From the NCBI GenBank assembly GCA_050298055.1, contig JBNKTL010000005.1:34149-98148 (forward strand): a stretch of 64,000 nucleotides of DNA, read 5' to 3'. The notes below the pieces were generated by a model. That model was not told the origin of the DNA. It saw nothing but the letters and a program-made list of their open reading frames with translations, and searched no databases. Positions within the stretch are counted from its first letter, which is position 1, and each line of letters starts with the position of its first letter. This stretch comes from Spirochaetota bacterium. GTDB taxonomy: Bacteria > Spirochaetota > UBA4802 > UBA5550. The translations under genes were made by a program, and so were the position numbers. This document shows positions 1,195-42,673 of the stretch, one piece after another.

Positions 1195-1451
1195 AGAAAA
1201 CCAACCTGATTATATAACGTAATTTTTATGGACTGTTTGTTAATTATTAACAATAAATGATATGAAATGGATGTCAATTTTTTTTTGATGCGAATATTTT
1301 TATTTATTGAGCCAGCCGGATATCATTTAACAGATACTTAAAGAGAAAAAATTCTTGCTATAAATGAATAGGTCATCGATAATGTATATTAATTACATGT
1401 TATGTAACTACTGTAAAGAATAGACATGTTAATAAATAAAATATAATTGAT

Positions 1452-1482
1452 ATGTCCCCTCCGCCTCGGGCGGCGGGGACAT
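1452..1482. repeat. GC-rich intergenic hairpin repeat, family H copy 1 (ATGTCCCCTCCGCC-TCGG-GCGGCGGGGACAT)
   Basis: Near-perfect inverted repeat embedded in AT-rich DNA between divergent genes 883..1194(-) and 1512..2507(+). It is homologous to copies at 10521, 13324 and 15082. Confidence 0.7.
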
Positions 1483-1511
1483 ATTGTTGGTAATATTAGT
1501 ATACTATAAAA

Positions 1512-2507
1512 ATGAAATTTAAAATAAAAGAATATCAGAGCAGGTTCAGTATTAAATTCTCCGAGAGTTACTATGTCTACAGGAAAAAGCTGAGTAAGGC
1601 CTGGGACAGGTTTCTGGAGAAGGGTCATGAGAAAATGACCATAATGTTTATCCCGCACAACGAAAAGAACATATTCAATTTTCAGATATCAAAGTTTATC
1701 ATTTCATTTTTTATCATTCTGTTTTTCGTGGTCATCGCAACATCATCGTACGCGATTATCAAAAACAATGCTGTTAAACGGGAAGAGCAGCGGCTCCTGA
1801 TGACCTACGAGGATATCCGCTCACACCTTCTGAGGTTTGAAAAACTTACAAACAATATTGAAGAACAGATTGATGAACTTAAACCCGATATTGAAGATCT
1901 TTATGAATCTGCGGCAGGAACTGAAATTACCGAAAACCTCTGGACTCTTGCTGACTTTGAGAAAAAGGAACTGAGTGAACTTCTCAAGATGAGGAGCATA
2001 CTCCCCGAGGAGATTTTTACCATAAAGGAGATACAGAAAGACCTCATCTGCTCTACAAACACCATAAAGGCAATCAAGAACTTTATCAACGTAAGGAGTA
2101 AGGTCATCAAAGACACTCCGTCCATTGTCTCGAACCAGGGGCATATTACATCACTGTTCGGATGGCGGAGGTCTCCTTTCGGGCATGGCAGGGATTTTCA
2201 TACGGGCATTGATATTGCGGCGTCTCCGGGTACTCCCATACGGGCCACAGCACCCGGTGTGGTTGTTACCGCGGGCTGGAACGGCGGATACGGTTTCACG
2301 GTAAGGATCAAACACAAATATGGCTTTGAAACGATTTACGGACACTGCAGAAGCATTGATGTACAGATTGATCAGCAGGTCAGGAAGGGCGAGGTGATCG
2401 CGTATGTTGGTCAGACAGGTAACGCTACGGGTAACCACTGTCACTATGAGATCAGGCTTGGTGGAATTCCCATTAATCCCTATCCCTACATGAGCAGAGT
2501 CTGGTAA
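1512..2507 (+). CDS. M23 family metallopeptidase (LytM-like), membrane anchored
   Basis: C-terminal FHTGIDIAA...GYG...HYEIR motifs typical of peptidase M23, plus an N-terminal TM helix. The start could alternatively be the downstream Met at ~1636. Confidence 0.8.
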   Translation: MKFKIKEYQSRFSIKFSESYYVYRKKLSKAWDRFLEKGHEKMTIMFIPHNEKNIFNFQISKFIISFFIILFFVVIATSSYAIIKNNAVKREEQRLLMTYEDIRSHLLRFEKLTNNIEEQIDELKPDIEDLYESAAGTEITENLWTLADFEKKELSELLKMRSILPEEIFTIKEIQKDLICSTNTIKAIKNFINVRSKVIKDTPSIVSNQGHITSLFGWRRSPFGHGRDFHTGIDIAASPGTPIRATAPGVVVTAGWNGGYGFTVRIKHKYGFETIYGHCRSIDVQIDQQVRKGEVIAYVGQTGNATGNHCHYEIRLGGIPINPYPYMSRVW

Positions 2508-2577
2508 TATCCGTCATAAATTAAAATATCATAATATATTATGGCCGCTTATATTCTCATCATTGTGCCGGGTGTAA

Positions 2578-5500
2578 GTGAAAGTTACAGCTTATATAAA
2601 ACTGCTGTTTATCTCAGGATTTGTGTTTACACTGGTTGCCCTCTATTCCGAAGAGAGCGGATTTAAATCAAGCCTCCTTAAATTTATTGAAAAAAACTCT
2701 GTAAAAGATGAGACACTTGCCGGAGACCGGCCTTCTCAAAATGGCGAAAAGAAACCGGGTTCCGGTTTACTGCTTCCCGGTGAGAGTGTTCCCGAGTCTC
2801 TCGATTACAGGGAGAGTGACTGGTCAAATTATGTCATTACTCCCGCATACCGGGTGCAGGGCCTCACGGAAACCCCTCTTATCCTTTATGGGAGCGATGA
2901 TGTAAACGTTCTCACATACGGGTCCATGAAACTGAATCTGACCTACGGAAAGTCGGTATTTACCGATAAAAAGTATAAACAGTTTGACGATGACAAACCG
3001 CATTCAAGGGTCATTGACTCGGGATTTGTTCCCGAACAGGAACTCCAGCTTCATATTGAAGGAAAAACCGGAAGAAGGATGACTCTCTTTATCGATCACG
3101 ACAGCAGAAAAGAAGATAATATCTACAGGATGAATTACCGGGCCCTCAAAGATGATGAGATCATCCGGGACATCAACGCGGGTGAAATAGACATCAAATT
3201 CGACCATTCAAAGTACGCGGTCTATGACAACAACAGCGCCAAAGGGCTTGGATTGGACCTGACGTTGAGAAAGAACAGGCTGCAGGTAAAAACTTTCGGA
3301 AGTATCACTCTGGGAGAAACGGAAGTAGAATACTTCAGGGGAAATTCATCTCCCGGCAGCTTTAAATTGTCCGAATACCAGTATCTGAAGAGATCGTATT
3401 ATCAACTTGAACCATTCAGAAGATATGATAACCTGGGAAGTATACCGACCGGGTCCGCGTCATACACATCTCTGAATGTATTCACCTCGGCGCCCGCGGA
3501 CCCGGCAGGTTACTCTCCCTATTCGGTAAAAATCAATCCTTCCGGCTTTGAGATATACCTGGATGACCAGAACCAGTATAACAACTACAATGCCATCCGG
3601 CTCTCAATTGACAACGGGTACTACACAAAACTTTCATCGGGAGAGGATTACATCATAAACTATACTACTGGTGTCATTACTTTCAAAAACACCCTGCCTG
3701 AGAATTCCCGGGTGCTTGTTGCGTATACTCTGAAAAGCGGGTCAACATCGGACCCGGGTGTTATCGCGCCGGGGGACGCCGCTCATCCCGGGGGAAATTT
3801 TACCGGGAAAAACTGTGTTTTTATCAAGTATGGTTATTCCCTGGATGAAGATTCCGATGAAGACCTTGTTCTCGATGGGGGAGAGGACAGGAATGGTGAC
3901 GGGAAACTGAATCTTGATATCTACGAGATAAGGTCTTTTTACTATCTCGGGGACAAAAATATTCTTCCGGATAATTTTCTGCTGCGGTTTTATAATGAAA
4001 ACCGTGTAATGGAAACGGGTGATGCCGCTCTTCTGGGAAAATACAGCGTGGACTATACTGCGGGTCTCCTGAAGTTTAGATTAAGAGAGCCGTTCAGGCG
4101 GGTCGTGACGTCTCATTATTCCGCGTCCGCCGCGTCAACCATATACTCGGAGAGGCAGACCGGCAGTACGTATCTTGATTCGCACTATTCGGCGCATGTT
4201 GATTACTACCGGGAAGCCAGGAGCTTCAAGTTGAAGCACTCTAATGTTATCCACAACAGCGTAAGTATAAAGATAGACGGGAGCAAAATAAAGGAGTCTC
4301 TCTATTCCGTTGACCAGACTTCTGGCTTCCTTGTCTTTCTCGATCCCAACAACCCTTTGATAACAGGGGAGACTGTCATTGAGGTAAAATATGAGTATCT
4401 TCCCCTGGGATCGGAGAGCCAGTCATTTATCGGGGGTGTGAGGGGAGATTACACGGTAAACAGAAATCTCAACCTGGGAGGAAGTGTCCTCTTTACACGG
4501 TCCGGTTCCAGTGTTACCATTCCGGATATAAACAGCAGCCCCTCACAGACTGTGGTCCTTGAAGGTGATGCCACGCTCCACCTGGGAGAGAAAAAACTTG
4601 CCGACCTGGCCAATATCTTTACGGAGAACAAGAAAAAAAGCGTCCCCCTTGAAATAAATGCGTATGCTGAATACGCCAGGAGTTACAGGAATGTCAATAC
4701 CTTCGGTAAGGGACTTATTGATAACATGGAATCTATTGATGAGATAATCTCTATTTCCCTGTCGGAAAAAGACTGGATCCTCTCCTCAATGCCATCGGGA
4801 TATTCACCGTCTGACAGGGGACTTCTTTATTACTATTTCTACAGGAGACTTTCCAGTCCTGAAAAACTTGAGGGGACTTCATTTTCGGCAACGGCAGTGA
4901 GCTACTCCACAAAGCCGGGCCCTTTTAACGTGGCAACGGGACATGTGGCAAACAGCATTAAAAAGGAAACATCACAGAGGTCCCTGGTCTTTGACTTTGA
5001 CATGTCGGGGGCAGGCAATGTCTCCGTGGCTACGAGGAGGCTCTCAGACACGGCCGTGGATTTTTCTGGTCTTCAGTATGTTGAGATCTGGTACAGGTAC
5101 GAAGGGACAGAGGATATTTCTCTTTCGGTTGATATAGGCAGTATCAACGAAGATTCCGACGGTGACTCGGTCCTCGATACGGAGGATGAAAACGGGAACA
5201 GTTTTCTCGATACCGATCCCGGGGCAGGTTATACGGAGGATACAGGTTACTCTTTCAATGGAAATAATGCAACAATTGTCGGTTCCGGTCCGGGGTTAAA
5301 TTCTGTCACCCGGGGGGATGGGATTCTCAACAGTGAAGACCTGAATGGAAACGGGACCCTTGAGACAGCGGAACAGGTTTACAGTATATCGCCGGTTACC
5401 CTGGCAGGAAACAGCAATGTATGGAAGAAGACAAGGATCTATATTGACCAGACGTCCCTGACCCAGAGTGAGATTGATCTCCTGAAGCAGGTTGAGGCGG

Positions 5501-8268
5501 TAAGGCTGAATATTGCAAACAGTACGGGGGCGTCGGGGAGGGTCTATATTGACAGCATTAAGTTTATCTCGTCGCGGTTCAGGAATGTCCAGATGAACGG
5601 TTCTGCCGCGGGCCCCGCGAATCTGGCCGTGACCCTGGTGAACAGTATAAATGATTCTGACTACAGGGCGGACGCCTTTATCTTTCAGCAGAGTGATGTT
5701 TATACATCCCTCTACGGAGAAAAGAACAGCAGTGAACTCTCCAGGGAGACGGAATCCGCGCTGCAGCTTGAGTATAACATTACATCGGGCACAAATGTAT
5801 CCGTAACCAGGTCTTTCGCGCGTCCCCTGGACCTGAGGCATTACAAGACAATGAATCTCTGGTTTAACTACCGGGAAAGTTCCGGCGGTGAAACAATAGG
5901 AATAATACTGGGCTCGTCTGAGAATGACTATGTGGAATACAGGTTCTCCATGGATTATATGGATGTCTGGAGGGAGGTCAGGCTCCGTCTCAAAGAAGGT
6001 TCGGGAGGGGACGTTAATTCCTCGTCAACAACAGGAGAACCTGATATGAAGAGGATCAGGTATATGAAGGTGGTGATATATGGAAATGCCGGGGACAGCG
6101 GTAAGATATGGCTGAACGACACGTATGTCTCTGAGCCGGAAACATTGAAGAGCAGTGCCCGCTGGTATGAAGGTGAACTGAAAATTAAGAGGCCCCTGTA
6201 TCGGACCGATTCCGGAACACCCATCCTTTCCGATATCAGTATCAAATACATTCACAAAGGGCATGGAGCGCAGTTCAGCACAATCGGAAAGAGCAACACG
6301 GATATTGATGAGAGCCACAACCAGGTTTTCTCATCATTCAGGATACTTCCCAACATGGAGACACGGCTGGACTATACAAGGGAAAAAACAAAAACAGACA
6401 GTTTAAATGAAGACGTCAACGAGGAGAAGAGAGGAGAGTCAATAAAAAACAGCTTTTACTTTATGACGGATTATAAATCATCAACAAGCGGTGTACCCAG
6501 TGTTGTCATATCCTACAAGCATGATAATTACAAGAATGTTATTGAAGAGGATATTACCGGTTATGATATAGACAGAAACAGGGGGAGAGTTGTCCATACG
6601 CCGGTTATTGCTATAACTGAAAATCTCGATAACTTTCTCTTTGGGAAGCTTACCACAAAACTTCTTCTTAACATGATCTTTAAAGAAGAGGATGTGAAGA
6701 GAAGTTCGCAGGATATTGACAGCAGCACGCTGTCCGGTTATGTATCTCTCCGGGAGAAGGAGAAGAGACAGAAATCTGATGCTACACTGTTTGTTACCTA
6801 TACCAGCAGGTATTTTTATATAAAGCCTGAGCTGAACATTAAATCGGAAGAGCTGGTGGATACCGCGGGGAAGGAGAATCTCCCGGACACGGAAATTGTC
6901 AGCGATGTACGGGGAGGATATCATGTTCCCTTTGTTTATAGTGACAGTCTCAGGTTTGTGGAAAGAAACAGGAAAGCTTTATGCGCCATTGGCCTTGTTG
7001 ACGGTTATGTAACCCCTGAATATAAACTCGACCTGAGTTATCTTGAAAACAGGTTCAGGGATTATGATGATTCAGAACTGCAGTCAGCGCAGGAGTACAG
7101 GAGGGCTAAAGACGCGAAGAGCCTTATTATGTCGGAAATATCACTGCCGGTGAACCTGAGAAAAATCAACAGCCTCCAATTTGTTAAGAACCTTAACCTC
7201 TCATATATGCGGAGTATTTACTTTTTTGAAAATGATATACCCTATGAAGGCGAAAGCAAGGGCCCCTTCAATGAAGATTACGGGATAAACAGGTCGCTGT
7301 TCGGTAATCTTGGGACCGGGTTAAACTTATTCAGGTACTATCCCGGATATTTTTTCAGGGGAAGGGATAATTACTCAAAGGGAAGAGACTATGTCTATGG
7401 CAGGGACAACCGGGAGCTTACCTTCCCCTCGGGTGATTCTGTGACTGATTACAACAACCAGCTCCGGCTGATAAACAACTTTTCCCTGAATTTCATGATG
7501 GATTTTAATCTCCTGACATTTGATTCAGGGGCGGGGATCAACCAGGTTAATGAACGGCAGCAGGTGAATGGTATCCCCCAGCAGATCATCACAAGGAACT
7601 TCAATACGGGAATTGACCTGAACCTGATGAAGGTCTTCAGTTTTGGATTTTTCAGGGGCAACAGGCTGGGTATTCCTCACCACTCTGCCAATTTAAAACT
7701 GGGATATACCTACAGCAACAACATGATCATTACATCCAATATTGAAGAGAATACCTATAAGCCGAGTCTCGGTCTGACCTTTAAAAGGGACAGGTCTCTC
7801 ATAGGATTGAAGGCCGGGATTGAAATGAGAAGGAAAAAGAGCAGGGAATTCATATCACCGGACGAGAGTTCCCGGTCAGACAGTGATGATATCTATATTG
7901 ACAATATGCCGGATAATTCCCTGTTAAGCGAGATTGACAACGGTTATAATCTTTCCCTCTTATATGAAACAGATGTGAACTGGCTCTTCAATCTCTTTTC
8001 AGAGATCTACCGGCTTTCTTCTCAGCCGATATTTTCTCTTGAGTATAACCTGGTCCTGAACAGGTATGATTACAGGTCAACCGTTTCCCCTGAACCATAT
8101 GACCTCCATATGATTAAAGGAAAGCTCACACTGGATCTTCATAAAAACATCCAGGGAGGACTCACTTCACGGTGGGCCCTTGAGAGATTCAGGAACAGGG
8201 AAACGGATGGGATAAGCAGGGAGGTTTTTTCCTATGAACTGGGAATGAACTTTACTCTCATTTTTTGA
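2578..8268 (+). CDS. giant (1896 aa) secreted outer-membrane beta-barrel protein with Ca-binding thrombospondin-type-3-like DxDxDG repeats; function unknown
   Basis: GTG start followed by a signal-peptide-like N-terminus. Acidic DSDGDSVLDTEDENGNSFLDTD and DLNGNGTLE repeats lie around nt 5150-5360. The C-terminal ~600 aa has alternating amphipathic strands and ends in ...NFTLIF, the aromatic C-terminus typical of OMP barrels. Confidence 0.65.
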   Translation: MKVTAYIKLLFISGFVFTLVALYSEESGFKSSLLKFIEKNSVKDETLAGDRPSQNGEKKPGSGLLLPGESVPESLDYRESDWSNYVITPAYRVQGLTETPLILYGSDDVNVLTYGSMKLNLTYGKSVFTDKKYKQFDDDKPHSRVIDSGFVPEQELQLHIEGKTGRRMTLFIDHDSRKEDNIYRMNYRALKDDEIIRDINAGEIDIKFDHSKYAVYDNNSAKGLGLDLTLRKNRLQVKTFGSITLGETEVEYFRGNSSPGSFKLSEYQYLKRSYYQLEPFRRYDNLGSIPTGSASYTSLNVFTSAPADPAGYSPYSVKINPSGFEIYLDDQNQYNNYNAIRLSIDNGYYTKLSSGEDYIINYTTGVITFKNTLPENSRVLVAYTLKSGSTSDPGVIAPGDAAHPGGNFTGKNCVFIKYGYSLDEDSDEDLVLDGGEDRNGDGKLNLDIYEIRSFYYLGDKNILPDNFLLRFYNENRVMETGDAALLGKYSVDYTAGLLKFRLREPFRRVVTSHYSASAASTIYSERQTGSTYLDSHYSAHVDYYREARSFKLKHSNVIHNSVSIKIDGSKIKESLYSVDQTSGFLVFLDPNNPLITGETVIEVKYEYLPLGSESQSFIGGVRGDYTVNRNLNLGGSVLFTRSGSSVTIPDINSSPSQTVVLEGDATLHLGEKKLADLANIFTENKKKSVPLEINAYAEYARSYRNVNTFGKGLIDNMESIDEIISISLSEKDWILSSMPSGYSPSDRGLLYYYFYRRLSSPEKLEGTSFSATAVSYSTKPGPFNVATGHVANSIKKETSQRSLVFDFDMSGAGNVSVATRRLSDTAVDFSGLQYVEIWYRYEGTEDISLSVDIGSINEDSDGDSVLDTEDENGNSFLDTDPGAGYTEDTGYSFNGNNATIVGSGPGLNSVTRGDGILNSEDLNGNGTLETAEQVYSISPVTLAGNSNVWKKTRIYIDQTSLTQSEIDLLKQVEAVRLNIANSTGASGRVYIDSIKFISSRFRNVQMNGSAAGPANLAVTLVNSINDSDYRADAFIFQQSDVYTSLYGEKNSSELSRETESALQLEYNITSGTNVSVTRSFARPLDLRHYKTMNLWFNYRESSGGETIGIILGSSENDYVEYRFSMDYMDVWREVRLRLKEGSGGDVNSSSTTGEPDMKRIRYMKVVIYGNAGDSGKIWLNDTYVSEPETLKSSARWYEGELKIKRPLYRTDSGTPILSDISIKYIHKGHGAQFSTIGKSNTDIDESHNQVFSSFRILPNMETRLDYTREKTKTDSLNEDVNEEKRGESIKNSFYFMTDYKSSTSGVPSVVISYKHDNYKNVIEEDITGYDIDRNRGRVVHTPVIAITENLDNFLFGKLTTKLLLNMIFKEEDVKRSSQDIDSSTLSGYVSLREKEKRQKSDATLFVTYTSRYFYIKPELNIKSEELVDTAGKENLPDTEIVSDVRGGYHVPFVYSDSLRFVERNRKALCAIGLVDGYVTPEYKLDLSYLENRFRDYDDSELQSAQEYRRAKDAKSLIMSEISLPVNLRKINSLQFVKNLNLSYMRSIYFFENDIPYEGESKGPFNEDYGINRSLFGNLGTGLNLFRYYPGYFFRGRDNYSKGRDYVYGRDNRELTFPSGDSVTDYNNQLRLINNFSLNFMMDFNLLTFDSGAGINQVNERQQVNGIPQQIITRNFNTGIDLNLMKVFSFGFFRGNRLGIPHHSANLKLGYTYSNNMIITSNIEENTYKPSLGLTFKRDRSLIGLKAGIEMRRKKSREFISPDESSRSDSDDIYIDNMPDNSLLSEIDNGYNLSLLYETDVNWLFNLFSEIYRLSSQPIFSLEYNLVLNRYDYRSTVSPEPYDLHMIKGKLTLDLHKNIQGGLTSRWALERFRNRETDGISREVFSYELGMNFTLIF

Positions 8269-8272
8269 TGTG

Positions 8273-10450
8273 TCATTTTTTAAAAACAGAATTAAGGACT
8301 TCTTCAAGTTCGTCTATCCTGTACGGTTTGGCAATAACTCCCTTAAATCCATGTTCTTTGTAGTTGCCCATAAGTTGATCATTTGAGTATCCGCTGGACA
8401 CAATTGCAGTTACGCCGGGATCATATTTTTTGAGGACCTCGAGGGTCTCCTGTCCGCCCATACCGCCGTGTATTGTCAGGTCCATTATGACCGCGTCGAA
8501 CTTCTTTCCATGTACATCGGCCCTCTTGTACTCAAAAACAGCATCCCTGCCGTCCTTAACGCATTCCACTTCACACCCGAGTTTTTCAAGCATTCGTGAA
8601 CCGACTTTCAGTATCATCTCTTCATCATCCAGGAGAAGTATTCTGCGGTTTATGAGATTAACATCCCCTGTTTCCGGTATCTTTGCGATAATGCCGTCAC
8701 CAACAGCCGGAAGATAGATGGTGAAAACCGTGCCTTCCCCGGCATCTGACTTTACATGGATGAGGCCGTTGTGCTCTTTAATAATTGAGTGTGCAATTGT
8801 AAGTCCAAGTCCCGTACTGTTCTCTTTCTTTGTGAAGTAGGGATCGTATATCCTATCGATAATTTCACTTTTTATTCCCGGTCCGGTGTCGGCTATACTT
8901 ATTTTTACACAGGGTCCTGTAAGTTCCGGCGGAAGCATGCCGGTTTCTGTTTTAAGATTTACCGCTGTTATTGTGAGCACTCCTCTCCGGTCCATAGCCT
9001 GGCATGCGTTGAGGATTATGTTATAAAATGCCCGGTTTATCTGTCCTTCATCGGCAAGCAGAGTATAAATATTATCAGGAATATCAATATTCTTTTCTAT
9101 CATTGTGCCGTTTAATATCAGGTTAACGGATTCATTGATCATTTTCGAAACCGGGATATTTTTTCTTATGGGCTTACCGCCTTTTGAAAACGCAAGAAGC
9201 TGAGTTGTCAGTTCCTTTGCCTTGTTCGATGCGGTCTCCGCTTCGTTGAGGATATCATATATTTCGTGGCTTTTATCAATTCCGGTTATGGCCAGGGAGA
9301 GATTTCCCGTAATGGCTGTGAGAAGGTTGTTAAAGTCGTGGGCAATTCCTCCCGCGAAAACTCCCAGTGCCTCTATCCGGGTCTGCTTAAAGTGTTCCTC
9401 CTCTTTCCTTGCCCGGGTCAGTTCATTCCGTGCTCTTTCCATGGTATTTTCAAGTCTTCCGATGTAGATAAAGAAAAAGAAAAAGACCATGAGTCCCAGT
9501 ACTCCCGAGATTGTAATAAGGAGTAATACGAGGTTCTTTATGGAAGCCATGTCCTCACTGATATCTGCCAGGACAAACAGGTAACCGATGTGACGGTTGC
9601 CCGCATCCATCATGGGAATAAATCCTCCCCGGTAAATCTGCTTTTCATGTTCGATTTCATCCTTGAGAGTGAGAGTCTTCGGTTTTTGAATATTCATTAT
9701 ATGCCGGTAATAGAAATCAAGGTTTTCCGGGATAAAGGTGAGTGTTCTGTCGGTGATTGCGTAATCTTTCAGCAGGTTCCAGCGTCCTTTCCTTCCGGTC
9801 ATGATAAGCCCCTCTTCCCAGAGGTTCTTTTTCAGAAGAGATTTCTTAATGCTGAGTATTGTTTCCACATCCAGGACTTTTTTAATATGGTAAAGAATCT
9901 CTACTATCTCGGCATCCAGTTCAATATATCCTGCAACCTTCCCGCGGAGCAAAAAAGGTTTTACAACCCGCAATGAGTAGGTCCCCAGGGGGCCCAGCTC
10001 TACGCCGTAGCCTGTTTTTTTCAGGATAACGGCATGTTTCAATGTAAACCTGTCAATGATATCACCATGCCTGTTATGGTTGTGGACCCTTAAAAAGCAT
10101 CTTTTGTCGGGATTGATAAAGGAGAGTCCTGTTATTCCAAATTCACTGTTTAATTCCCGGTAGAGGTTTACTGTTTTTTCATACAAAAGCTCCCTCTCTC
10201 CGCTTCTCCACGCGGAAATAATCTCCCTGCTGTTCTCGATTTGCCTGATAAGCCCGTTAAATGAAACAGCCTTCTGGGACAACTTCTCCAGGTAGAGGTT
10301 GTTTGCCTTCTCCAGCAGAGAAGTGATTTTACTATCCAGGTTATCATTTTTTACGTAGTAGAATCCCGCAATGGATGAAATGAGAAGTATCACCAGGGAG
10401 AAAAGAACAGGGAATAATATTTTTGCTTTTATTTTCTGATACCTGTGCAT
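8273..10450 (-). CDS. hybrid sensor histidine kinase / response regulator with periplasmic sensor domain
   Basis: N-terminal TM, periplasmic domain, second TM, HisKA (HDFNNLLTAITGN) and HATPase_c (DTGPGI, GTGLGL) motifs, and a C-terminal receiver domain (LLLDDEE...D...K). The ORF track extends to 10552, but that extension overlaps a hairpin repeat. The internal Met at 10450 (MHRYQKIKAKIL, directly followed by the TM helix) is preferred as start. Confidence 0.8.
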   Translation of the reverse strand: MHRYQKIKAKILFPVLFSLVILLISSIAGFYYVKNDNLDSKITSLLEKANNLYLEKLSQKAVSFNGLIRQIENSREIISAWRSGERELLYEKTVNLYRELNSEFGITGLSFINPDKRCFLRVHNHNRHGDIIDRFTLKHAVILKKTGYGVELGPLGTYSLRVVKPFLLRGKVAGYIELDAEIVEILYHIKKVLDVETILSIKKSLLKKNLWEEGLIMTGRKGRWNLLKDYAITDRTLTFIPENLDFYYRHIMNIQKPKTLTLKDEIEHEKQIYRGGFIPMMDAGNRHIGYLFVLADISEDMASIKNLVLLLITISGVLGLMVFFFFFIYIGRLENTMERARNELTRARKEEEHFKQTRIEALGVFAGGIAHDFNNLLTAITGNLSLAITGIDKSHEIYDILNEAETASNKAKELTTQLLAFSKGGKPIRKNIPVSKMINESVNLILNGTMIEKNIDIPDNIYTLLADEGQINRAFYNIILNACQAMDRRGVLTITAVNLKTETGMLPPELTGPCVKISIADTGPGIKSEIIDRIYDPYFTKKENSTGLGLTIAHSIIKEHNGLIHVKSDAGEGTVFTIYLPAVGDGIIAKIPETGDVNLINRRILLLDDEEMILKVGSRMLEKLGCEVECVKDGRDAVFEYKRADVHGKKFDAVIMDLTIHGGMGGQETLEVLKKYDPGVTAIVSSGYSNDQLMGNYKEHGFKGVIAKPYRIDELEEVLNSVFKK

Positions 10451-10520
10451 ATAAGTATTCTCTTCTTGTTGCTGTTCAGTTATATGATTATAATCAACCT
10501 GTTTACTAAAATACCAAAAA

Positions 10521-10553
10521 TATATCCCTGCCGCCTTGAGTGGCGGTGACATA
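10521..10553. repeat. family H hairpin repeat copy 2 (degenerate: ATATCCCTGCCGCC-TTGAGT-GGCGGTGACATAT)
   Basis: Same GCCGCC/GGCGG core and ATAT..GACATAT flanks as the other copies. It lies in the divergent region upstream of the kinase gene. Confidence 0.5.
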
Positions 10554-10763
10554 TCAGTAATATTTTATTATGAAGATGATTCTTCTTATACTCAGCCTGA
10601 GTAGTTTCCTCTTATGGAATTATTCTGAATTATAGATGCTATTTTCGCAAGTGAATTTTCAGTAAAGAAGTCTGATATTCTCCTTGACATTATCGGGAAA
10701 AGGACTTAGTAAGAAAAATGTGATATTTTCTGATCACCATATCTGAAAGAATGAGGAAAAAAC

Positions 10764-10940
10764 ATGGCAATTAATATGGCAGAATGCGCAGGTCATGAGA
10801 ACCACCTGTGTAACCTTATTGAGAAAAAAACACCTGTTGAGAAAATAAAATCAATGGTAATGACACCAAAATTTATCTGCAGCGGATGCGGCAGGGTTGC
10901 TGAAAGCAAAGACAATCTCTGTTCGCCGGAAGAGCTGTAA
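10764..10940 (+). CDS. small Cys-rich protein (58 aa; putative metal-binding/zinc-ribbon-like), hypothetical
   Basis: Missing from the ORF track because it is under 60 aa. Read by hand: a GAGGAAAAAAC Shine-Dalgarno then ATG; MAINMAECAGHENHLCNL...FICSGCGRVAESKDNLCSPEEL with 5 Cys and 2 His. It is convergent with selB. Confidence 0.4.
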   Translation: MAINMAECAGHENHLCNLIEKKTPVEKIKSMVMTPKFICSGCGRVAESKDNLCSPEEL

Positions 10941-10953
10941 AAAAAGAACTCTC

Positions 10954-12771
10954 TCAGGCTTTGATCCTGAAATCACCCACTCTCTTCAGGAGCCCCTCCC
11001 GCTCTATCCGGTTCAGGAGGGGAAGCATATATTTTCTTGAGATATCAATGGCGTCTCTTGCGTCGGATATGGATATCTTCTCCATGGTGTCAAAAAGGTC
11101 CATGATCTTCTCTTTTGAGCTGTTGTAAACATCCCTGTGGTAAATGATATTTCCATCCAGGCTGATGAGAAAATCCATCCTGATGAGTTCCTTGATTGTT
11201 TTTTTTCGCAGGTCGTCCTTCTCCCTGCTCAGTTCAATCCCTTTTGTGCTGCTTTCCAGTATTTCATCAAGGAGTTTCCTGCTTCCCTCGGGGAGGGTTT
11301 CCTCGGTTATGGAATCTCCCGAAAAGTACCTGCCGTCCTTTTCAATGATTGTATGCTCTTTCATTGCCAGGGGCAGGAGCTCCTTGCAGATTTCGGGGGA
11401 GATACCCGATGAATCGGATACCTCCCTGAGGTTAAGGCCGACTTTTTCCTTTATGGATTCCACAAGTGATTTTATTGAATTTTCATAATAGGCCGAGTTA
11501 AGAAGAAAGTCCTTTATCTTTATTATTTTTTTCTCTTCTTCCAGTTTCTTAATAAGCGCATCCATACTCTTTTCTGAATCTGGAAGCATCTTCATAAGGC
11601 GCTCCCTTGTGAGACAGTTAAATACGGAGAGATTGAATTCCACAATTTCAGGTTTTGTGATGTTTTGTAAAATTGAAAGGTTTTTTCTGACGGCCTTTTT
11701 CAACTTTGAATTATAATCACAGAGGACCACTTTTCCCCCGCCGATGACCCTGTATCCCCCGGGGTTTGTTATGACAAACGGCTGGCTGGTGGTGAAATAC
11801 CATTCCCTGTCGATCTTTATCCTTACGAGGTAGATACTCTTTTCTTCAACCTCTTCTAGTATGATAAGTTTTCCTTTGACATCCGAGGTCCCTACCAGAA
11901 TTTCAATTCCCAGGTTGTTCTTGATCTCTTTGGACCTGTCAAGTATCTGGACCCTTGCCACAAACTCCCTGGACTCTATGAAAAAGTTTTTCTTGAAAAG
12001 GATCCATCCCCTTTTGATCTCGTTTACGGAAACACCGGATAGGTTCAGGGCCGTTCTCTGTGACGGGTTGCCTTCTTCTACTTCATTGAAGTGGGTCTCA
12101 ATCCGCTTTATTCTCGCGTCCTTTTTTATGGGGAGGATATGCACAGTATCGTCTTCGTTGAATATGCCGTTCTTCTGTGTCCCGGTTATAACAGTTCCGT
12201 GGCCCTTTGACGCGAAAACCCTGTCTATAAAGAGATAGGGCTTGTCCGTCTTTGTGATCTTTGAGAGCCGGCGGAGGTTTTCTACGATGAGGTTTTTCAA
12301 ATTCTCAATTCCTTCACCGGTTTTTGTCGATGTGGCGGTAATATCCGATCCCTCATAGAGGGTCCCGGAAAGCTTCTCCTCAACCTCGGCCTTCACGAAT
12401 TCCACCATCTCTTCATCTGCGAGATCAACCTTGTTCAGAACAACAATCATCCTCTCGATTCCCAGGATTTGTAAAACTCTGAAGTGGTCCTCTGTCTGGG
12501 GCATCCAGCCGTCATCTACCGCGATAACAAGAAGTGCAAGATCCACACCCCAGGCCCCCACGACCATGTTCCTGATAAAACGCTCATGGCCCGGAACATC
12601 GATGATACTCACTGTGCCAAACTTCGGATATACGATACTTGCAAAACCGATATCAATGGTCATCTCCCTCTCTTTTTCTTCGGGGAGCCTGTCCGTGTCA
12701 ATCCGGGTAAGTGAATATATCAGAGAGGTTTTGCCATGGTCGATGTGACCGGATGTTCCAACAATATACAT
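10954..12771 (-). CDS. selB: selenocysteine-specific translation elongation factor SelB
   Basis: N-terminal GTPase domain (GTSGHIDHGKTSL...DRLPEEKEREMTIDIGFA) followed by a long C-terminal extension with winged-helix-like domains, giving the 605 aa typical of SelB. Confidence 0.9.
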   Translation of the reverse strand: MYIVGTSGHIDHGKTSLIYSLTRIDTDRLPEEKEREMTIDIGFASIVYPKFGTVSIIDVPGHERFIRNMVVGAWGVDLALLVIAVDDGWMPQTEDHFRVLQILGIERMIVVLNKVDLADEEMVEFVKAEVEEKLSGTLYEGSDITATSTKTGEGIENLKNLIVENLRRLSKITKTDKPYLFIDRVFASKGHGTVITGTQKNGIFNEDDTVHILPIKKDARIKRIETHFNEVEEGNPSQRTALNLSGVSVNEIKRGWILFKKNFFIESREFVARVQILDRSKEIKNNLGIEILVGTSDVKGKLIILEEVEEKSIYLVRIKIDREWYFTTSQPFVITNPGGYRVIGGGKVVLCDYNSKLKKAVRKNLSILQNITKPEIVEFNLSVFNCLTRERLMKMLPDSEKSMDALIKKLEEEKKIIKIKDFLLNSAYYENSIKSLVESIKEKVGLNLREVSDSSGISPEICKELLPLAMKEHTIIEKDGRYFSGDSITEETLPEGSRKLLDEILESSTKGIELSREKDDLRKKTIKELIRMDFLISLDGNIIYHRDVYNSSKEKIMDLFDTMEKISISDARDAIDISRKYMLPLLNRIEREGLLKRVGDFRIKA

Positions 12772-12828
12772 AGAGTCTCCTGAAACAGGTTATTGTCTCC
12801 TCTTGGCGCGGGTGATCGGTTTTCCCTG

Positions 12829-13236
12829 CTACTTGACGCCGCGGCTGATAAAAAAGCTGCTGTATTTTTTATCGGATCCCACAACATGGTCCTGGAGCCA
12901 GTCCACCAGGAAAGCAAGAAGTTCAAACGCATCAACACCTTTTCCTTCATCGAGGTCTTTTTTCAAGGATAAGACTTTTTTACTCAGCTCTTCATGTTCT
13001 TTCTTATGTGAGGCTTTATCAAAATAATGATGTTTTTCAAAAAGCTTCTCTTCATTATCAAAGTGATAATGAGTATAATCCAGCAGCTCCTGGATTATTT
13101 CAGATATCTTATCGGGACTGCCTCCCCCGGTAAGTACAGCATGAGCATTGTTAATAAGCTCGATAATTTTTTTGTGCTGAGCGTCCAGAGTATCAATCTC
13201 AACACGGAAGTTATCTTCCCATTCAAAAAAAGTCAT
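12829..13236 (-). CDS. hemerythrin-like (bacteriohemerythrin) protein
   Basis: WxDxxxV...IDxQHKxxxxLIN...HF..EE...H..F...H..F...WL..HI..D..Y spacing of His/Glu iron ligands characteristic of bacteriohemerythrins. 135 aa. Confidence 0.75.
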   Translation of the reverse strand: MTFFEWEDNFRVEIDTLDAQHKKIIELINNAHAVLTGGGSPDKISEIIQELLDYTHYHFDNEEKLFEKHHYFDKASHKKEHEELSKKVLSLKKDLDEGKGVDAFELLAFLVDWLQDHVVGSDKKYSSFFISRGVK

Positions 13237-13323
13237 ATAGTTACATCCTTTAATTTTTGTTTTTTATATTGTAACTACTCAGTTGTATGGCTGAAAATAA
13301 ACATATTTAATAAAATGCCAATA

Positions 13324-13359
13324 TTATGTCCCCGCCGCCGAAGGCGGTGGGGACATAAT
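13324..13359. repeat. family H hairpin repeat copy 3 (TTATGTCCCCGCCGCC-GAAG-GGCGGTGGGGACATAA)
   Basis: 16-bp stem (one G:T) with a 4-nt loop, between selA and the hemerythrin gene. Confidence 0.7.
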
Positions 13360-13429
13360 GGTTATCTTTTGTTCATTAACATATCTATTTTTATACATAG
13401 CTGAATAGTAACTTTATATTTTATAAAAA

Positions 13430-14815
13430 CTACGTAAACCTCTCGAGAAGTTCGTCAATGACAGATGCAATGTAGGAGATATCATCATCAAAAACAGTCA
13501 TAAAATCAAGAGTATACCTGTCGTTTATAATAGAACCTACAACCGGAAGGTTCAGTGAGATCATCCTGTTGTAGAGGTCATCCGGTTTTACTCCGGGAAG
13601 AAGTAATTCTACACCGGCGCTTTCAACTTCCAGGGTGGGAAGCGTACCGCCCCCGTAAGTGCTCATGGTGCTGACCCTTTTTACCCGGTCCTTTTTCAGG
13701 GGATTTTTGATATTCCTCATGAGTCTTGTTATTTTCCCGGAAAGGGATTTCTTGTCCTGAAAAATTGTGCTCCAGAGGGGAAGGTCCTCATGTTCTCCGT
13801 TATCATACAAAAGGAGTGTTTCCTGGATGATATAGTAGGTGATCTTATCCACCCTGATCATCCGCATGAGGGGATTTTTCCTGAGTCGGACAATCAGCTC
13901 CTTTTTCCCGATAATAATGCCCGCCTGGCATCCTCCCAGAAGTTTGTCTCCGCTGAAACATACCAGGTCCGCGCCCTGGGAAAGTTCCTGACCCACTGTC
14001 TGTTCAAAATTTGCCGGAAGTTCGCTGCCGGTAACGAGGTTACCGCTTCCCAGGTCCCTGACCAGGAGAATATGGTCGGTTTTCAGCTCTGAGAGTTCTT
14101 TTAACGATGGAGACCGGGAAAACCCCTCTATTTTATAATTGGACCGGTGTGCGGAGAATATCATTGATGTGTTCTCTGTTATACTGTTTTTATAATCATC
14201 CAGTTCGGTGATATTTGTTGTTCCCGTTTCAACAAGATGTGCCCCGCTCTGGTTCATGATATCGGGTATCCTGAATCCGCCCCCTATCTGGATCAGTTCA
14301 CCCCGGGAAACCACTGCTTCTCTCCCCCGGGCAAATTCATTGAGGATCAGGAACACCGATGAAGCGTTGTTATTGACGATGAGGGCGTCTTCGGCAGATG
14401 TGAGGTTGCAGATAAGTTCCTCTGCGAACCCGCCTCTTTTGCCCCTTTTCCCAGTTGTGAGCTGGTATTCCAGGTTGCAGTATCCTGAAAGTGCTTCGGC
14501 CGCCCGGGAGAAGATCTCCTTCCCGAGGGGTGACCTTCCGAGATTGGTGTGGATTATGACACCGGTACAGTTTATGACCTTCTGGAGTTTGTGGAGTTTT
14601 TTGATTCTGCAGTTTTTCACTATTGCCGGAACAAGCTTCTCTACCGGTACATCAGCGCCGTCCTGGATTTTTTTCCTGAAAAGGTCAATGACTTTTCGGA
14701 CGATACCGGTTACAAGCGAATGTCCTATTTCAGGAATAAAAGCAGCTATTTCATCATTCTGCAGCAGCTTTTCCACCTGGGGGATGTTGCGTAGGTTGTT
14801 CTGTGTGTCGTTCAT
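13430..14815 (-). CDS. selA: L-seryl-tRNA(Sec) selenium transferase SelA
   Basis: 461 aa. The INCTGVIIHTNLGRSPLG motif around the PLP-lysine region is typical of SelA. It is co-located with selB and tRNA-Sec. Confidence 0.9.
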   Translation of the reverse strand: MNDTQNNLRNIPQVEKLLQNDEIAAFIPEIGHSLVTGIVRKVIDLFRKKIQDGADVPVEKLVPAIVKNCRIKKLHKLQKVINCTGVIIHTNLGRSPLGKEIFSRAAEALSGYCNLEYQLTTGKRGKRGGFAEELICNLTSAEDALIVNNNASSVFLILNEFARGREAVVSRGELIQIGGGFRIPDIMNQSGAHLVETGTTNITELDDYKNSITENTSMIFSAHRSNYKIEGFSRSPSLKELSELKTDHILLVRDLGSGNLVTGSELPANFEQTVGQELSQGADLVCFSGDKLLGGCQAGIIIGKKELIVRLRKNPLMRMIRVDKITYYIIQETLLLYDNGEHEDLPLWSTIFQDKKSLSGKITRLMRNIKNPLKKDRVKRVSTMSTYGGGTLPTLEVESAGVELLLPGVKPDDLYNRMISLNLPVVGSIINDRYTLDFMTVFDDDISYIASVIDELLERFT

Positions 14816-14840
14816 AGAGTTTCCGGTTTATTCGTTGATT

Positions 14841-14930
14841 CGGAAGGGGCAGGAATCGAACCTGCCGCTACAATAAATTACAGCCAACGGTTTTGAAGAC
14901 CGCGGAGACCACCAGATCTCATCCTCTTCC
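14841..14930 (-). tRNA. selC: tRNA-Sec (selC), anticodon UCA
   Basis: Minus-strand sequence GGAAGAGGAT-GAGATCTGGTGGTCTC-CGCGGTCTTCAAAACCGTT-GGCTGTAATTTATTGTAGC-GGCAGGTTCGATTCCTGCC-CCTTCCG. It has a 6-bp D-stem with 4-nt loop, a CUUCAAA anticodon loop (UCA), a long variable arm, a GGTTCGATTCC T-arm and an 8-bp-type acceptor with one A:C mismatch. All of these are tRNA-Sec hallmarks, and the gene sits directly upstream of selA. Confidence 0.75.
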
Positions 14931-15081
14931 CTGATATTGAGTTTCACTTTCGAAGAGAATATGTCAATTATTTATTCTTTATTGAGATTTTTTTACCCCC
15001 TCATTAATTCTCCCTCTATCAGGGGGAGTTAGGGTAAAAAAATTTTAATTATGTAAACATATTTATGAAAAAAATACCTGA

Positions 15082-15114
15082 TATGTCCTCGCCGCCTTCG
15101 GCGGCGAGGACATA
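15082..15114. repeat. family H hairpin repeat copy 4 (TATGTCCTCGCCGCC-TTCG-GCGGCGAGGACATA)
   Basis: Perfect 14-15-bp stem with a UUCG loop. It carries a compensated C>T/G>A change relative to copies 1 and 3. It lies in the divergent region between selC and nuoE. Confidence 0.7.
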
Positions 15115-15237
15115 AAAGTTAATTTTTTAAATACACTTATTTTTAATCATAGCTGAATAGTAATAATAAAATATAAAATATCTTTTTTTGAAGCAGAAGC
15201 ATGAGAGAATTGTCATATCTATTGGACGGGAACAGTA

Positions 15238-15768
15238 ATGGGAAAATGCACGGAATACGATGAAAAGGCGATTTGTGAGGATGTAAAGAGCATGCTCAAG
15301 AAGGTTGAGCAGAGCCGGAGCAGCCTTATCCCCCTTCTTCAGAATATCCAGGAAAAGTACTGCTTCCTCGCGCCGGAAGCCATTGAACTTATTGCGGATA
15401 AGCTCAACCTGAATACCTGCGAAGTATACGGTGTTGCTACCTTCTACAACCAGTTCAGGTTTCACCCTCCCGGGAAACACCAGGTCAAGGTCTGTATGGG
15501 GACCGCATGCCATGTAAAGGGCGGAGATATTATTCTTGAGAACTTTGAAAGGAAACTCGATATAAAGGTCGGCCAGACCACAGAGGACAGGGAGTTCAGC
15601 GTGGACAAGGTTGCCTGTATCGGGTGCTGCGCCCTTGCCCCTGCGGTGGTTATTGATGAGAAGATACATGCCTATATGTCTCCCAGCAAGGTTGAAGGGA
15701 TCTTTCTCGGCTACGAGATTGAGAAAGAGATGCAGGCCCGGAAAGAGAAAAACCGGCAGGACCAGTAG
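15238..15768 (+). CDS. NADH:quinone oxidoreductase subunit E-like [2Fe-2S] thioredoxin-fold protein (NuoE/HoxE/HndA family)
   Basis: 176 aa with the CxxxxC...CxxxC pattern (CMGTACHVKGG ... CIGCCALAP) of the NuoE family. Confidence 0.85.
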   Translation: MGKCTEYDEKAICEDVKSMLKKVEQSRSSLIPLLQNIQEKYCFLAPEAIELIADKLNLNTCEVYGVATFYNQFRFHPPGKHQVKVCMGTACHVKGGDIILENFERKLDIKVGQTTEDREFSVDKVACIGCCALAPAVVIDEKIHAYMSPSKVEGIFLGYEIEKEMQARKEKNRQDQ

Positions 15769-41815: not shown

Positions 41816-42673
41816 TATGAAAACCTCCGTTTGATTAAATTTATATAAACATCGGAGATTTTGCACATCCTGCAGCTGGAATCGGATCGCCGTGTAATCT
41901 CTTCTGTTAATATCGCAGTATTAATCCAACTAAGTCGTCTTCAGCTGATATTTTCCTCATTTGTAGAAAAAATTTTTCGTGAACCTGAACCGGGTAAGAT
42001 TTCTGTTTTTATGGAAGACAAGAAAGAAAAAGAAGAGTTTCTGAATAACATTAGTAACATCCTTATCCTTACTATTAATTATAATATACTTAATTTTAAG
42101 GTTAGTCAATAATATTGTCAGATTTTAAAAATTTATGGTTTTATTGCTCTATTACGTTTTTTTATATCCAGCACTATACATAGCCCTTAAACGTCTGTTA
42201 GATGATATGCTTTGAGGAGTAAAATGGGTTTTTATGGAATTTTACAGGAAACATGAAGATCTTCTTTCATAAATATGTAACAATTACAAATCTGTATTGA
42301 CAAAAAATTATAGAATATTGTTGGAATTTTAGTAAATAAATGTATCTTTATTAATATCGCTGAGTAATTAAGGAGAAATCACACAAACAGTACGATGTCA
42401 TGTAAAATACCTTTTTTGTAATGCTGAAAAAATATGATAAAATTAAGAAATTATATACTTTTTAAAAAAATAAGTTGATTAAAAAAGATGGTGTCTGTCT
42501 ATTGTATTTCACTCAATATTATTAAATAAAGAGAAATAATGGGAATATAAAGTCAGAATTGATTAATATAGATGCTGTTTAAAATGGCATATTCCCGTTT
42601 AAAAATTTATTTTTTTATTGTGCATTTTGCCAGGGATTAACCTGTATAAATAATAATTTTTAGGAGGGAAAGA

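What the first reader, a model, noticed from the sequence alone, without database searches (positions are those of the whole stretch)
1452..15114. Four-member family of GC-rich hairpin repeats (ATGTCCCCGCCGCC-loop-GGCGGCGGGGACAT) with compensatory stem changes, all about 60-120 bp upstream of gene starts
Copies lie at 1452..1482, 10521..10553, 13324..13359 and 15082..15114. Each is a 13-16-bp GC-rich stem inside very AT-rich DNA, with conserved ATAT/TGAT...ATGTCC and GGACAT-A flanks. Copy 4 carries C>T in one arm and the matching G>A in the other. Copy 1 has a bulge, and copy 2 is more degenerate. Loops differ (TCGG, TTGAGT, GAAG, TTCG). Covariation that preserves pairing argues the structure itself (RNA hairpin or DNA cruciform) is selected, not just the sequence. 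Three of the four lie in divergent promoter regions. Possibilities are a REP/MITE-like element, a regulator operator, or a leader-RNA stability element. Copy 2 overlaps the ORF-track N-terminal extension of the sensor kinase, which argues for the downstream start at 10450.
Basis: seen in the sequence. Interest (0 to 1): 0.6.

Follow-up and report, generated by a model that had tools for sequence, protein, structure and literature searches.

The report
Small mobile repeats with GC hairpin core
The four GC-rich hairpins are real and are the conserved centres of about 142-bp palindromic, non-coding repeat elements that look like miniature transposons (MITEs) in an uncultured spirochaete genome; this is an ordinary kind of selfish DNA, with the modest twist that a strain-level rearrangement breaks exactly at one hairpin.

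Summary
The four hairpins are at the stated coordinates and are far beyond chance. A covariance model finds only these four in the 64 kb (E <= 2e-9; next hit E = 1.8). Each is the core of a longer imperfect palindrome of about 141-144 bp. The ends are 12-nt inverted repeats (GTAACTACTCAG / CTGAGTAGTTAC). Copy 3 is flanked by a perfect 8-bp direct repeat and copy 2 by a 6/8 repeat. Pairing is kept by double changes at six stem positions across 16 sequences. The core is about 91% conserved between copies; the AT-rich arms about 56%.

The same 29-nt core is the centre of a many-copy element in Leptospirales MAGs. That element has 17-bp terminal inverted repeats and perfect 9-bp target duplications, and lies between divergent, tandem and convergent genes.

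Sister species lack copy 3's core at the orthologous site and carry decayed copies elsewhere in the sel locus. In three same-species MAGs, sequence identity with the window ends exactly at copy 4's hairpin, followed by a different arm and different genes.

Best reading (about 0.7): a MITE-like family whose GC hairpin is a conserved module. The operator, leader-RNA, REP/RAYT and terminator readings fit worse. New member of a known kind; modest interest.

The parts
1404..1547 (.). Element copy 1, about 144 bp. Left end is GTAACTACTGTA (1404-1415); the right end is degenerate, CAGAGCAGGTTC (1536-1547). Core hairpin at 1452-1482 with one T/C mismatch. It lies between a divergent lipoprotein-like ORF (883-1194, minus strand) and the M23 peptidase gene, whose annotated start at 1512 falls inside the right arm.
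10468..10608 (.). Element copy 2, 141 bp and the most decayed. Ends are GTTGCTGTTCAG (10468-10479) and CTGAGTAGTTTC (10597-10608). The core at 10521-10553 has 5 in-register mismatches. Flanking 8-mers CTCTTCTT (10460-10467) and CTCTTATG (10609-10616) match at 6 of 8 positions. It lies between selB and the hybrid sensor kinase (start 10450).
13271..13412 (.). Element copy 3, 142 bp and the best preserved. Ends are GTAACTACTCAG (13271-13282) and CTGAATAGTAAC (13401-13412). Core at 13324-13359. The whole element folds at -51 kcal/mol on the plus strand and -55 on the minus strand (z -6.8 and -8.4). It lies between selA and the hemerythrin gene.
13263..13270 (.). Left copy of the 8-bp direct repeat TTTATATT flanking copy 3 (putative target-site duplication).
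   Evidence: an 8/8 match at this spacing in AT-rich parts of the window has an empirical frequency of about 2.6e-4
13413..13420 (.). Right copy of the 8-bp direct repeat TTTATATT flanking copy 3.
15026..15164 (.). Element copy 4. Core at 15082-15114, with a compensated T-A pair. Right end is CTGAATAGTAAT (15153-15164). The left end is unclear because it abuts a different G5/C5 hairpin at 14990-15040. It lies between tRNA-Sec and the nuoE-like gene. Identity with the same-species MAG contigs ends at the 3' edge of the core.
42315..42371 (+). Solo arm-like fragment (ATATTGTTGG...CGCTGAGTAATTA) without a core hairpin. Weak match; possibly the remnant of a decayed copy.
   Evidence: (E 0.3)

Best explanation
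The hairpins are the conserved central module of a family of non-coding, imperfectly palindromic repeat elements of about 142 bp. [quoted passage not shown]

Shown:
- Each element has 12-nt terminal inverted repeats (GTAACTACTCAG / CTGAGTAGTTAC), AT-rich arms and a GC clamp of 14 + 3 + 14 nt.
- The best-preserved copy has an 8-bp flanking duplication.
- Copies differ in presence and state between sister species.
- An element with the identical core in Leptospirales MAGs has all the sequence hallmarks of transposition.

Inferred:
- A DDE-type transposase encoded elsewhere moves the elements in trans into AT-rich intergenic DNA, duplicating 8-9 bp of target.
- The core and the ends are what a copy needs in order to be propagated. 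The GC clamp would nucleate a foldback or cruciform that brings the two ends together. This would explain why the core is about 91% conserved, with compensated changes, while the arms have drifted to about 56%.
- Once resident, the palindrome has side effects. It is a substrate for recombination or breakage, which fits the strain rearrangement whose breakpoint is copy 4's hairpin. When co-transcribed, as c3 would be inside selA-hemerythrin-selB, it would form a long RNA hairpin that could be cut by RNase III or could stabilise the upstream message, as is known for Correia and ERIC elements.
For: Anatomy of the window copies:
- Conserved ends and arm blocks appear in both orientations of all four copies.
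- Element lengths are 141-144 bp.
- c3 folds as one long hairpin, z -6.8 and -8.4.

Flanking duplications:
- c3 has a perfect 8-bp direct repeat (empirical frequency 2.6e-4).
- c2 matches at 6 of 8 positions (frequency 1.3%).

Related element elsewhere:
- The identical core centres a 113-bp element in Leptospirales MAG CAZEJW01 (10 copies in 69 kb fetched) and in L061.
- That element has 17-bp terminal inverted repeats and perfect 9-bp target duplications at all 11 copies.
- It occurs in divergent, tandem and convergent intergenic regions.

Presence, absence and decay:
- c3's core and distal arm are absent from the selA-hemerythrin spacer of L075 (SelA 90% identical) and from L074 and L076-78.
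- L074 has a decayed copy after selB that shares the derived AGTG state with c2.
- L075 has 1.5 copies upstream of tRNA-Sec.

Structure:
- 94% of cells are paired, six pairs change on both sides, and 0 of 500 shuffles reach the observed values.
- Core halves are 91% identical against 56% for the arms.

Rearrangement:
- The window is 99.7-99.8% identical to L001 and L002 up to copy 4's core. Beyond it they carry a different arm and unrelated genes.
- MAG and Logan contigs end inside the hairpin.

Literature: Leptospirales and other spirochaetes are reported as especially MITE-rich (PMC11602168).
Against: - No cognate transposase or full-length insertion sequence with these ends was found.
- Only one of the four window copies has a clean target duplication; c1 and c4 have none.
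- No clean empty site was recovered. L075 keeps an arm-like remnant at the c3 site, so either an insertion in the window lineage or a deletion in L075 is possible.
- The five distinct copies seen in about 83 kb of this species all lie in one 14-kb stretch around the sel locus. There are none in the other roughly 70 kb, which is odd for random transposition.
- Similarity to the Leptospirales and L065 elements is limited to the core, so common descent of the families is inferred, not shown.
- The rearrangement rests on MAG contigs, which can be chimeric at repeats.
Confidence: 0.7

Rival explanations
1. The GC hairpin is itself a functional, structure-specific DNA site, and is not just MITE cargo. 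It would be a recombination or cleavage site recognised as a hairpin or cruciform by a conserved spirochaete protein. Several unrelated AT-rich elements would have picked it up independently.
For: - The same 29-nt core occurs with at least three unrelated arm and end types and two duplication lengths: the window family, the Leptospirales family, and L065. In L020 it occurs bare between two genes.
- The core is much better conserved than the arms, with compensated pairs.
- The strain-level breakpoint falls exactly at the core.
- GC-rich hairpins of this strength are otherwise almost absent from these genomes.
Against: - No candidate recombinase lies next to any copy.
- The breakpoint can equally be explained by homologous or break-induced recombination between repeats, or by MAG chimerism.
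- The shared core was found with a pattern that fixed 20 of its positions, and similar single hairpins also turn up in Clostridia and Actinobacteria. Part of the cross-lineage identity could therefore be coincidence.
- c2, L074 e1 and L075 e2 are decaying, which argues against selection at each locus.
Confidence: 0.1
2. REP/REPIN-type elements mobilised by a RAYT (Y1, IS200-like) transposase.
For: - Each core is a short GC-rich extragenic palindrome with compensatory changes.
- The window does encode a 196-aa Y1_Tnp protein at 36808-37398.
Against: - That gene is flanked by a different repeat (GGGTCAGAGC; 12 copies between 35301 and 40424), not by this hairpin.
- The elements have terminal inverted repeats and flanking duplications, which Y1 transposition does not produce.
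- There is no conserved GTAG-like head next to the stem.
Confidence: 0.07
3. A host cis-regulatory element: an operator for a dimeric regulator, or a 5'-leader or intercistronic RNA hairpin, that controls the sel locus and neighbouring genes.
For: - All window copies end 17-45 nt from a start codon.
- The copies cluster around selA, selB and tRNA-Sec in three species.
- Pairing is maintained.
- Promoter-like hexamers occur in several arms.
Against: - The adjacent genes are functionally unrelated: M23 peptidase, sensor kinase, hemerythrin and the nuoE-like gene.
- c3's core is missing in the sister species that has the same gene order, and c2 and L074 e1 are decaying.
- Relatives of the element sit between convergent genes.
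- Symmetric compensated changes do not help a protein-binding half-site.
- The promoter-like matches are not significant in AT-rich DNA.
- No Rfam family matches.
Confidence: 0.07
4. Ordinary bidirectional intrinsic terminators that happen to be similar.
For: - The stems are very stable GC hairpins in intergenic DNA.
- c3 follows selA, and the scan flags c3 and c1 as terminator-like on the plus strand.
Against: - No T-run directly follows the stem in most copies or strands.
- c1 and c4 lie between divergent starts, where no terminator is needed.
- Independent terminators would not share 14-nt arms, arm blocks and terminal repeats.
Confidence: 0.04

Closest known systems
Bacterial MITEs, in particular the MITE-rich genomes of Leptospirales and Spirochaetes (census in PMC11602168), and the Leptospirales MAG element found here (TIR CAGTATTTATTCCTAAA, 9-bp TSD)
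   Same: Small, non-coding and intergenic, with terminal inverted repeats and short AT-rich target duplications. The 29-nt GC hairpin core is identical.
   Different: The window family has different ends (GTAACTACTCAG), an 8-bp rather than 9-bp duplication, and arms that are themselves palindromic. It has far fewer and much more diverged copies. No partner transposase is known for either family.
Correia elements (Neisseria) and ERIC/IRU elements (enterobacteria)
   Same: Imperfect palindromes of 100-155 bp close to gene starts or between cistrons. They fold into long RNA hairpins when co-transcribed. From established knowledge, they can carry outward promoters and are processed by RNase III or affect mRNA stability.
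   Different: There is no sequence similarity. Correia elements duplicate TA and have 26-bp terminal inverted repeats. Neither has a discrete GC-clamp hairpin at its centre. RNA processing has not been tested here.
REP/BIME/REPIN elements with RAYT transposases
   Same: A GC-rich extragenic hairpin of about 30 nt, with compensatory mutations, that is a hotspot for rearrangement.
   Different: REPs lack terminal inverted repeats and target duplications, carry a conserved tetranucleotide head, and flank their RAYT gene. Here the only Y1 transposase gene is flanked by another repeat family.
IS66-family insertion sequences (inverted repeat starting GTAAGCG, 8-bp direct repeats; PMC11946415)
   Same: The ends begin with GTAA and the flanking duplication is 8 bp.
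   Different: Only four nucleotides agree, and no IS66 transposase was looked for or found. This is a lead only.

Membership tests
MITE | Small (50-800 bp) element without coding capacity | tested here: met
   The elements are 141-144 bp, AT-rich, and carry no ORF of their own.
MITE | Terminal inverted repeats of at least 10 bp | tested here: met
   GTAACTACTCAG / CTGAGTAGTTAC is seen at c3 (12 and 10 of 12), at c2, at L001 c4', at L074 and at L075 e1. The ends are degenerate at c1 and on the left of c4.
MITE | Target-site duplication flanking each copy (window family) | tested here: inconclusive
   c3 matches at 8 of 8 (TTTATATT; empirical frequency 2.6e-4) and c2 at 6 of 8 (1.3%). c1, c4, L074 and L075 show no clear duplication.
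MITE | Target-site duplication (Leptospirales elements with the same core) | tested here: met
   All 11 copies have a perfect 9-bp direct repeat next to the 17-bp terminal inverted repeats.
MITE | Multiple dispersed copies in one genome | tested here: inconclusive
   Five distinct copies were seen in about 83 kb of this species, all within about 14 kb.
MITE | Filled versus empty sites in relatives | tested here: inconclusive
   c3's core and distal arm are absent at the orthologous spacer in L075, L074 and L076-78. L075 keeps an arm-like remnant, so there is no clean empty site.
MITE | A cognate autonomous insertion sequence with the same ends | not testable with these tools
   No full genome of the source was available. 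Neither the window nor the fetched loci contain an insertion sequence with these ends.
REP/RAYT | The hairpin flanks a RAYT gene, and the elements have no terminal inverted repeats or target duplication | tested here: not met
   The Y1_Tnp ORF at 36808-37398 is flanked by GGGTCAGAGC repeats instead. The elements do have terminal inverted repeats and flanking duplications.
Intrinsic terminator | A GC hairpin directly followed by a U-tract, at the 3' end of a gene | tested here: not met
   Only loose matches, at c1 and c3 on one strand. c1 and c4 lie between divergent gene starts.
Any Rfam RNA family | A match at the family's gathering score | tested here: not met
   The only hit in the window is tRNA-Sec.
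Integron attC site | RYYYAAC ... GTTRRRY boxes and a nearby integrase or cassette array | tested here: not met
   By inspection the ends TTGTAAC / GTTACAA do not fit the consensus. The neighbouring genes are core genes (selA, selB, hydrogenase), and no integrase was found in the Pfam scans.
IS66-derived MITE | Inverted repeat starting GTAAGCG, 8-bp direct repeats, and an IS66 transposase in the genome | tested here: inconclusive
   The ends start with GTAA and c3 has an 8-bp repeat, but the next bases differ and no transposase was available to compare.

The most novel reading that the evidence does not exclude
The 29-nt GC hairpin (TGTCCCCGCCGCC-N3-GGCGGCGGGGACA) is a portable, structure-specific recombination or cleavage module shared across Spirochaetota. 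Unrelated miniature elements with different ends and different duplication lengths would have captured it independently, and it would actively drive genome rearrangements. The strain-level breakpoint exactly at copy 4, next to the selenocysteine locus, would be one such event.
Probability: 0.1. Interest if true: 0.6.

Novelty: new member of a known kind. Interest (0 to 1): 0.3.

Why it matters
For annotation:
- The hairpins should be masked as repeat elements, not read as operators or riboswitch-like leaders.
- They help fix gene starts. The sensor kinase starts at 10450, and the M23 peptidase start at 1512 lies inside an element.

For genome biology:
- The elements mark a plastic region around the selenocysteine-decoding genes of an acetogen-like spirochaete.
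- They break short-read assemblies.
- One coincides with a structural difference between near-identical strains.
- The strong conservation of a GC clamp inside otherwise fast-drifting AT-rich elements, and its recurrence in a clearly mobile Leptospirales element, gives a testable hint about what such foldback MITEs need for mobility.

None of this departs from known classes of bacterial repeats.

Tried and rejected
It never reached the source genome, so no copy number was obtained.
- The metagenome scan gave one related locus, L073. The viral scan gave none.
- Literature searches for the core sequence and for Leptospira MITEs gave nothing specific. No supplementary files are held for the MITE census paper.
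- The sigma-70 promoter scan of the arms gave matches no better than shuffles around c1. The excess of matches over 10400-15300 covers the region as a whole and is not specific to the arms. The idea of an outward promoter is left as speculation.
- The terminator reading is rejected for lack of T-tracts.
- The attC reading is rejected by inspection of the end motifs.
- The RAYT link is rejected because the Y1 transposase gene has its own, different repeats.
- I looked for a full-length insertion sequence between matching ends in the fetched loci and found none.
- nhmmer comparison of arms between the window family and the Leptospirales, L065 and L020 elements shows similarity only in the core.
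- Extending the same-species sequence by 9 kb upstream gave no further copies. The look-up at the right-hand end returned only a short contig lying inside the window.
Full report
**1. Observation**

- c1, 1452-1482: ATGTCCCCTCCGCC-TCG-GGCGGCGGGGACAT.
- c2, 10521-10553: ATATCCCTGCCGCC-TTG-AGTGGCGGTGACAT. Read in register, it has five mismatches.
- c3, 13324-13359: one G-T pair.
- c4, 15082-15114: a perfect stem in which C>T in the left arm is matched by G>A in the right arm.

The family is well beyond chance.
- The 14-nt arm with up to three mismatches occurs 15 times against 4.6 +/- 1.7 in shuffles, and eight of those hits are the paired arms.
- I built a covariance model from 16 family members and ran it with filters off. 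It finds only these four loci in the 64 kb (E 1.6e-13 to 2e-09); the next hit has E = 1.8.
- The window has only four hairpins with a 10-bp stem of at least 80% GC. Three are these, and the fourth is a terminator-like hairpin after the FTHFS gene.

- c1 has a 1x1 mismatch, not a bulge.
- Only c1 and c4 lie between divergent genes. c2 and c3 lie between co-directional genes on the minus strand.

**2. Context**

Pfam and ARAGORN give this gene order:
- a lipoprotein-like ORF (883-1194, minus), then c1;
- M23 peptidase (1512-2507) and a 1896-aa protein with no Pfam domain;
- a hybrid sensor kinase (8273-10450/10552, minus), then c2;
- selB (10954-12771, minus) and hemerythrin (12829-13236, minus), then c3;
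- selA (13430-14815, minus) and tRNA-Sec (14841-14930, minus), then c4;
- a NuoE/NuoF/Fer2-type hydrogenase module (15238 onward).

The rest of the window encodes cytochrome c maturation, haem synthesis and a Wood-Ljungdahl cluster. The closest SelA homologues are labelled Spirochaetes or Spirochaetota, so the source is an uncultured spirochaete.

**3. The hairpins are cores of longer elements**

Aligning the four regions in both orientations shows conserved blocks well outside the stems. The outer ends are GTAACTACTCAG and CTGAGTAGTTAC, and an inner block reads AAACATAT..TTAATAAAAT. A profile built from them matches each locus over about 140 positions on both strands (E 1e-25 to 1e-35) and nothing else convincingly.

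The elements span 1404-1547, 10468-10608, 13271-13412 and about 15026-15164. c3 folds as a single long hairpin at -51 and -55 kcal/mol on the two strands (z -6.8 and -8.4).

c3 is flanked by a perfect 8-bp direct repeat, TTTATATT, at 13263-13270 and 13413-13420. An 8/8 match at that spacing occurs with frequency 2.6e-4 in AT-rich parts of the window. c2 has a 6/8 match (frequency 1.3%). c1 and c4 have none, and the left end of c4 abuts a different G5/C5 hairpin.

**4. Relatives elsewhere**

It did show that the identical core, TGTCCCCGCCGCC-N3-GGCGGCGGGGACA, is repeated in a Leptospirales MAG (CAZEJW01; 10 copies in 69 kb fetched). It also occurs in a second Leptospirales MAG (L061), in Spirochaetes bacterium RBG_13_51_14 (L065), and bare between two genes in another spirochaete (L020).

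Aligned, the Leptospirales copies are a textbook MITE of 113 bp. They have 17-bp terminal inverted repeats (CAGTATTTATTCCTAAA) and a perfect 9-bp target duplication at every one of the 11 copies. They lie in divergent, tandem and convergent intergenic regions.

Similarity to the window family is confined to the core; the arms and ends are unrelated. One metagenome locus (L073) carries a doubly compensated core, CCCGCCCGCC/GGCGGGCGGG, 33 nt upstream of a start codon.

**5. Structure conservation**

I tested a 16-bp stem on 16 distinct cores. 94% of cells pair, six pairs show changes on both sides, and no shuffle out of 500 reaches the observed covariation. Slid registers drop to 40-59% paired. 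The base of the stem also covaries between families: A-T in the window, T-A in Leptospirales and G-C in L020.

Among c1, c3 and c4 the core halves are 91% identical, while the arms are about 56% identical (shuffled arms give 49%). Pairing, rather than a protein half-site, is therefore what is kept.

In a mobile palindrome this is expected in two ways. Only foldback-competent copies may propagate, or hairpin-templated repair may homogenise the arms. It does not by itself show a host function.

**6. Comparison with relatives of the locus**

- Same-species MAG contigs (L001, L002, and a third MAG seen as L083) are 99.7-99.8% identical to the window from 3430 up to copy 4's core.
- The sister species L075 (SelA 90% identical) has the same selA-hemerythrin-selB order but only an 88-bp spacer. 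That spacer has no core and only an arm-like remnant, TATAGTCGAGTAATTAT. L075 also has one full and one half element upstream of tRNA-Sec.
- L074 (SelA 86%) has a strongly decayed element after selB that shares the derived AGTG state with c2.
- L076-78 (SelA 65%) keep the selA-selB-kinase-1906-aa order with short spacers and no element.

The copies therefore come, go and decay on the time scale of species divergence. That does not fit an operator or a leader under purifying selection.

**7. Rearrangement at copy 4**

In L001 and L002 the tRNA-Sec-side arm and the core are identical to the window. Immediately after ...GGACATA they continue with a different arm of the same type (ATTGTTGATATTTTTGCAAAAAGTTTATTTTGGTCATATAGCTGAGTAGTTAT). 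Unrelated genes follow: an MGS/AICARFT-like gene, an acetyl-CoA-synthetase-like gene, an MFS transporter gene and a PEPCK gene. None of these is in the window.

In GCA_050298995.1, the MAG that L002 comes from, the nuoE contig (L079) starts inside the hairpin. The two Logan contigs (L003 and L080) also end at or inside it. This is what recombination between two copies at the core would produce. Chimerism or strain mixture in the MAGs cannot be excluded.

**8. Rivals**

- **REP/RAYT.** The window has a Y1_Tnp gene (36808-37398), but it is surrounded by another repeat family, GGGTCAGAGC. Y1 transposition also makes no terminal inverted repeats or target duplications.
- **Operator or leader RNA.** The neighbouring genes are unrelated, c3's core is missing in the sister species, other copies are decaying, relatives sit between convergent genes, and no Rfam family matches.
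- **Terminator.** There are no T-tracts, and two copies lie between divergent starts.
- **attC.** The end motifs do not fit and there is no integrase.
- **Core as an independent recombination module.** This more novel reading is not excluded. I give it about 0.1.

**9. Verdict**

This is a MITE-like family with a conserved GC-clamp core: a new member of a known kind. The literature already reports that spirochaetes, and Leptospirales in particular, are rich in MITEs (PMC11602168).

The IS66 resemblance (ends starting GTAA, 8-bp repeats; PMC11946415) is an untested lead. Interest is modest at 0.3. The points worth following are the clustering around the selenocysteine locus, the breakpoint at the core, and the recurrence of the same core in elements with different ends.

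Noticed in passing
window 35301-40424 (ORF 36808-37398, minus strand): A 196-aa IS200-like Y1 transposase (Pfam Y1_Tnp, E 2.7e-12) sits among 12 copies of a different repeat, GGGTCAGAGC. These include inverted pairs at 37483/37546 and 40293/40335, and a tandem array of five 20-bp units at 40335-40424. It looks like a RAYT gene with its own REP cluster.
   Followed up: partly
window 18384-18453, 56197-56270 and 14990-15040: A third family of GC-rich nested hairpins (CCCCTAACCCCCGGAGGGGGCA ... GCCCCCTGAGGGGG.TGGGGGG) lies in intergenic DNA. A related piece abuts, and seems to truncate, the left arm of copy 4.
   Followed up: no
window 15114/15115; L001 and L002 around 9700: Three same-species MAGs share a different gene neighbourhood beyond copy 4 (an MGS/AICARFT-like gene, an acetyl-CoA-synthetase-like gene, an MFS transporter gene and a PEPCK gene instead of the hydrogenase genes). 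The switch falls at the hairpin. L002 also has an uncompensated SNP in the stem (CGCGGACAT).
   Followed up: partly
L003 start, L079 start, L080 start: Short-read contigs (Logan and one NCBI MAG) terminate inside or at the copy 4 hairpin. The repeat breaks assemblies.
   Followed up: yes
window 42315-42371: A solo arm-like fragment of the element without a core lies about 300 bp upstream of the formate-tetrahydrofolate ligase gene.
   Followed up: partly
window 12829-13236; L074, L076: A hemerythrin gene sits between selA and selB in the window species and in L075. It is absent in L074 and L076-78, where selA is followed directly by selB. The sel locus is variable in content and in flanks.
   Followed up: partly
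window 1512-1547: The annotated start of the M23 peptidase gene (331 aa in the MAG gene calls) lies inside the right arm of copy 1. The next in-frame ATG is at 1635 (MTIMFIPH...).
   Followed up: partly
window 2578-8268: A 1896-aa protein has no Pfam domain but is conserved next to the kinase in relatives down to 65% SelA identity (1900-1906 aa in L074 and L076).
   Followed up: no
window 42674-54506: A Wood-Ljungdahl gene cluster (FTHFS, FolD, CODH/ACS subunits, a pterin-binding methyltransferase) occurs together with selenocysteine machinery and an electron-bifurcating-type hydrogenase module. This suggests an acetogenic spirochaete.
   Followed up: no
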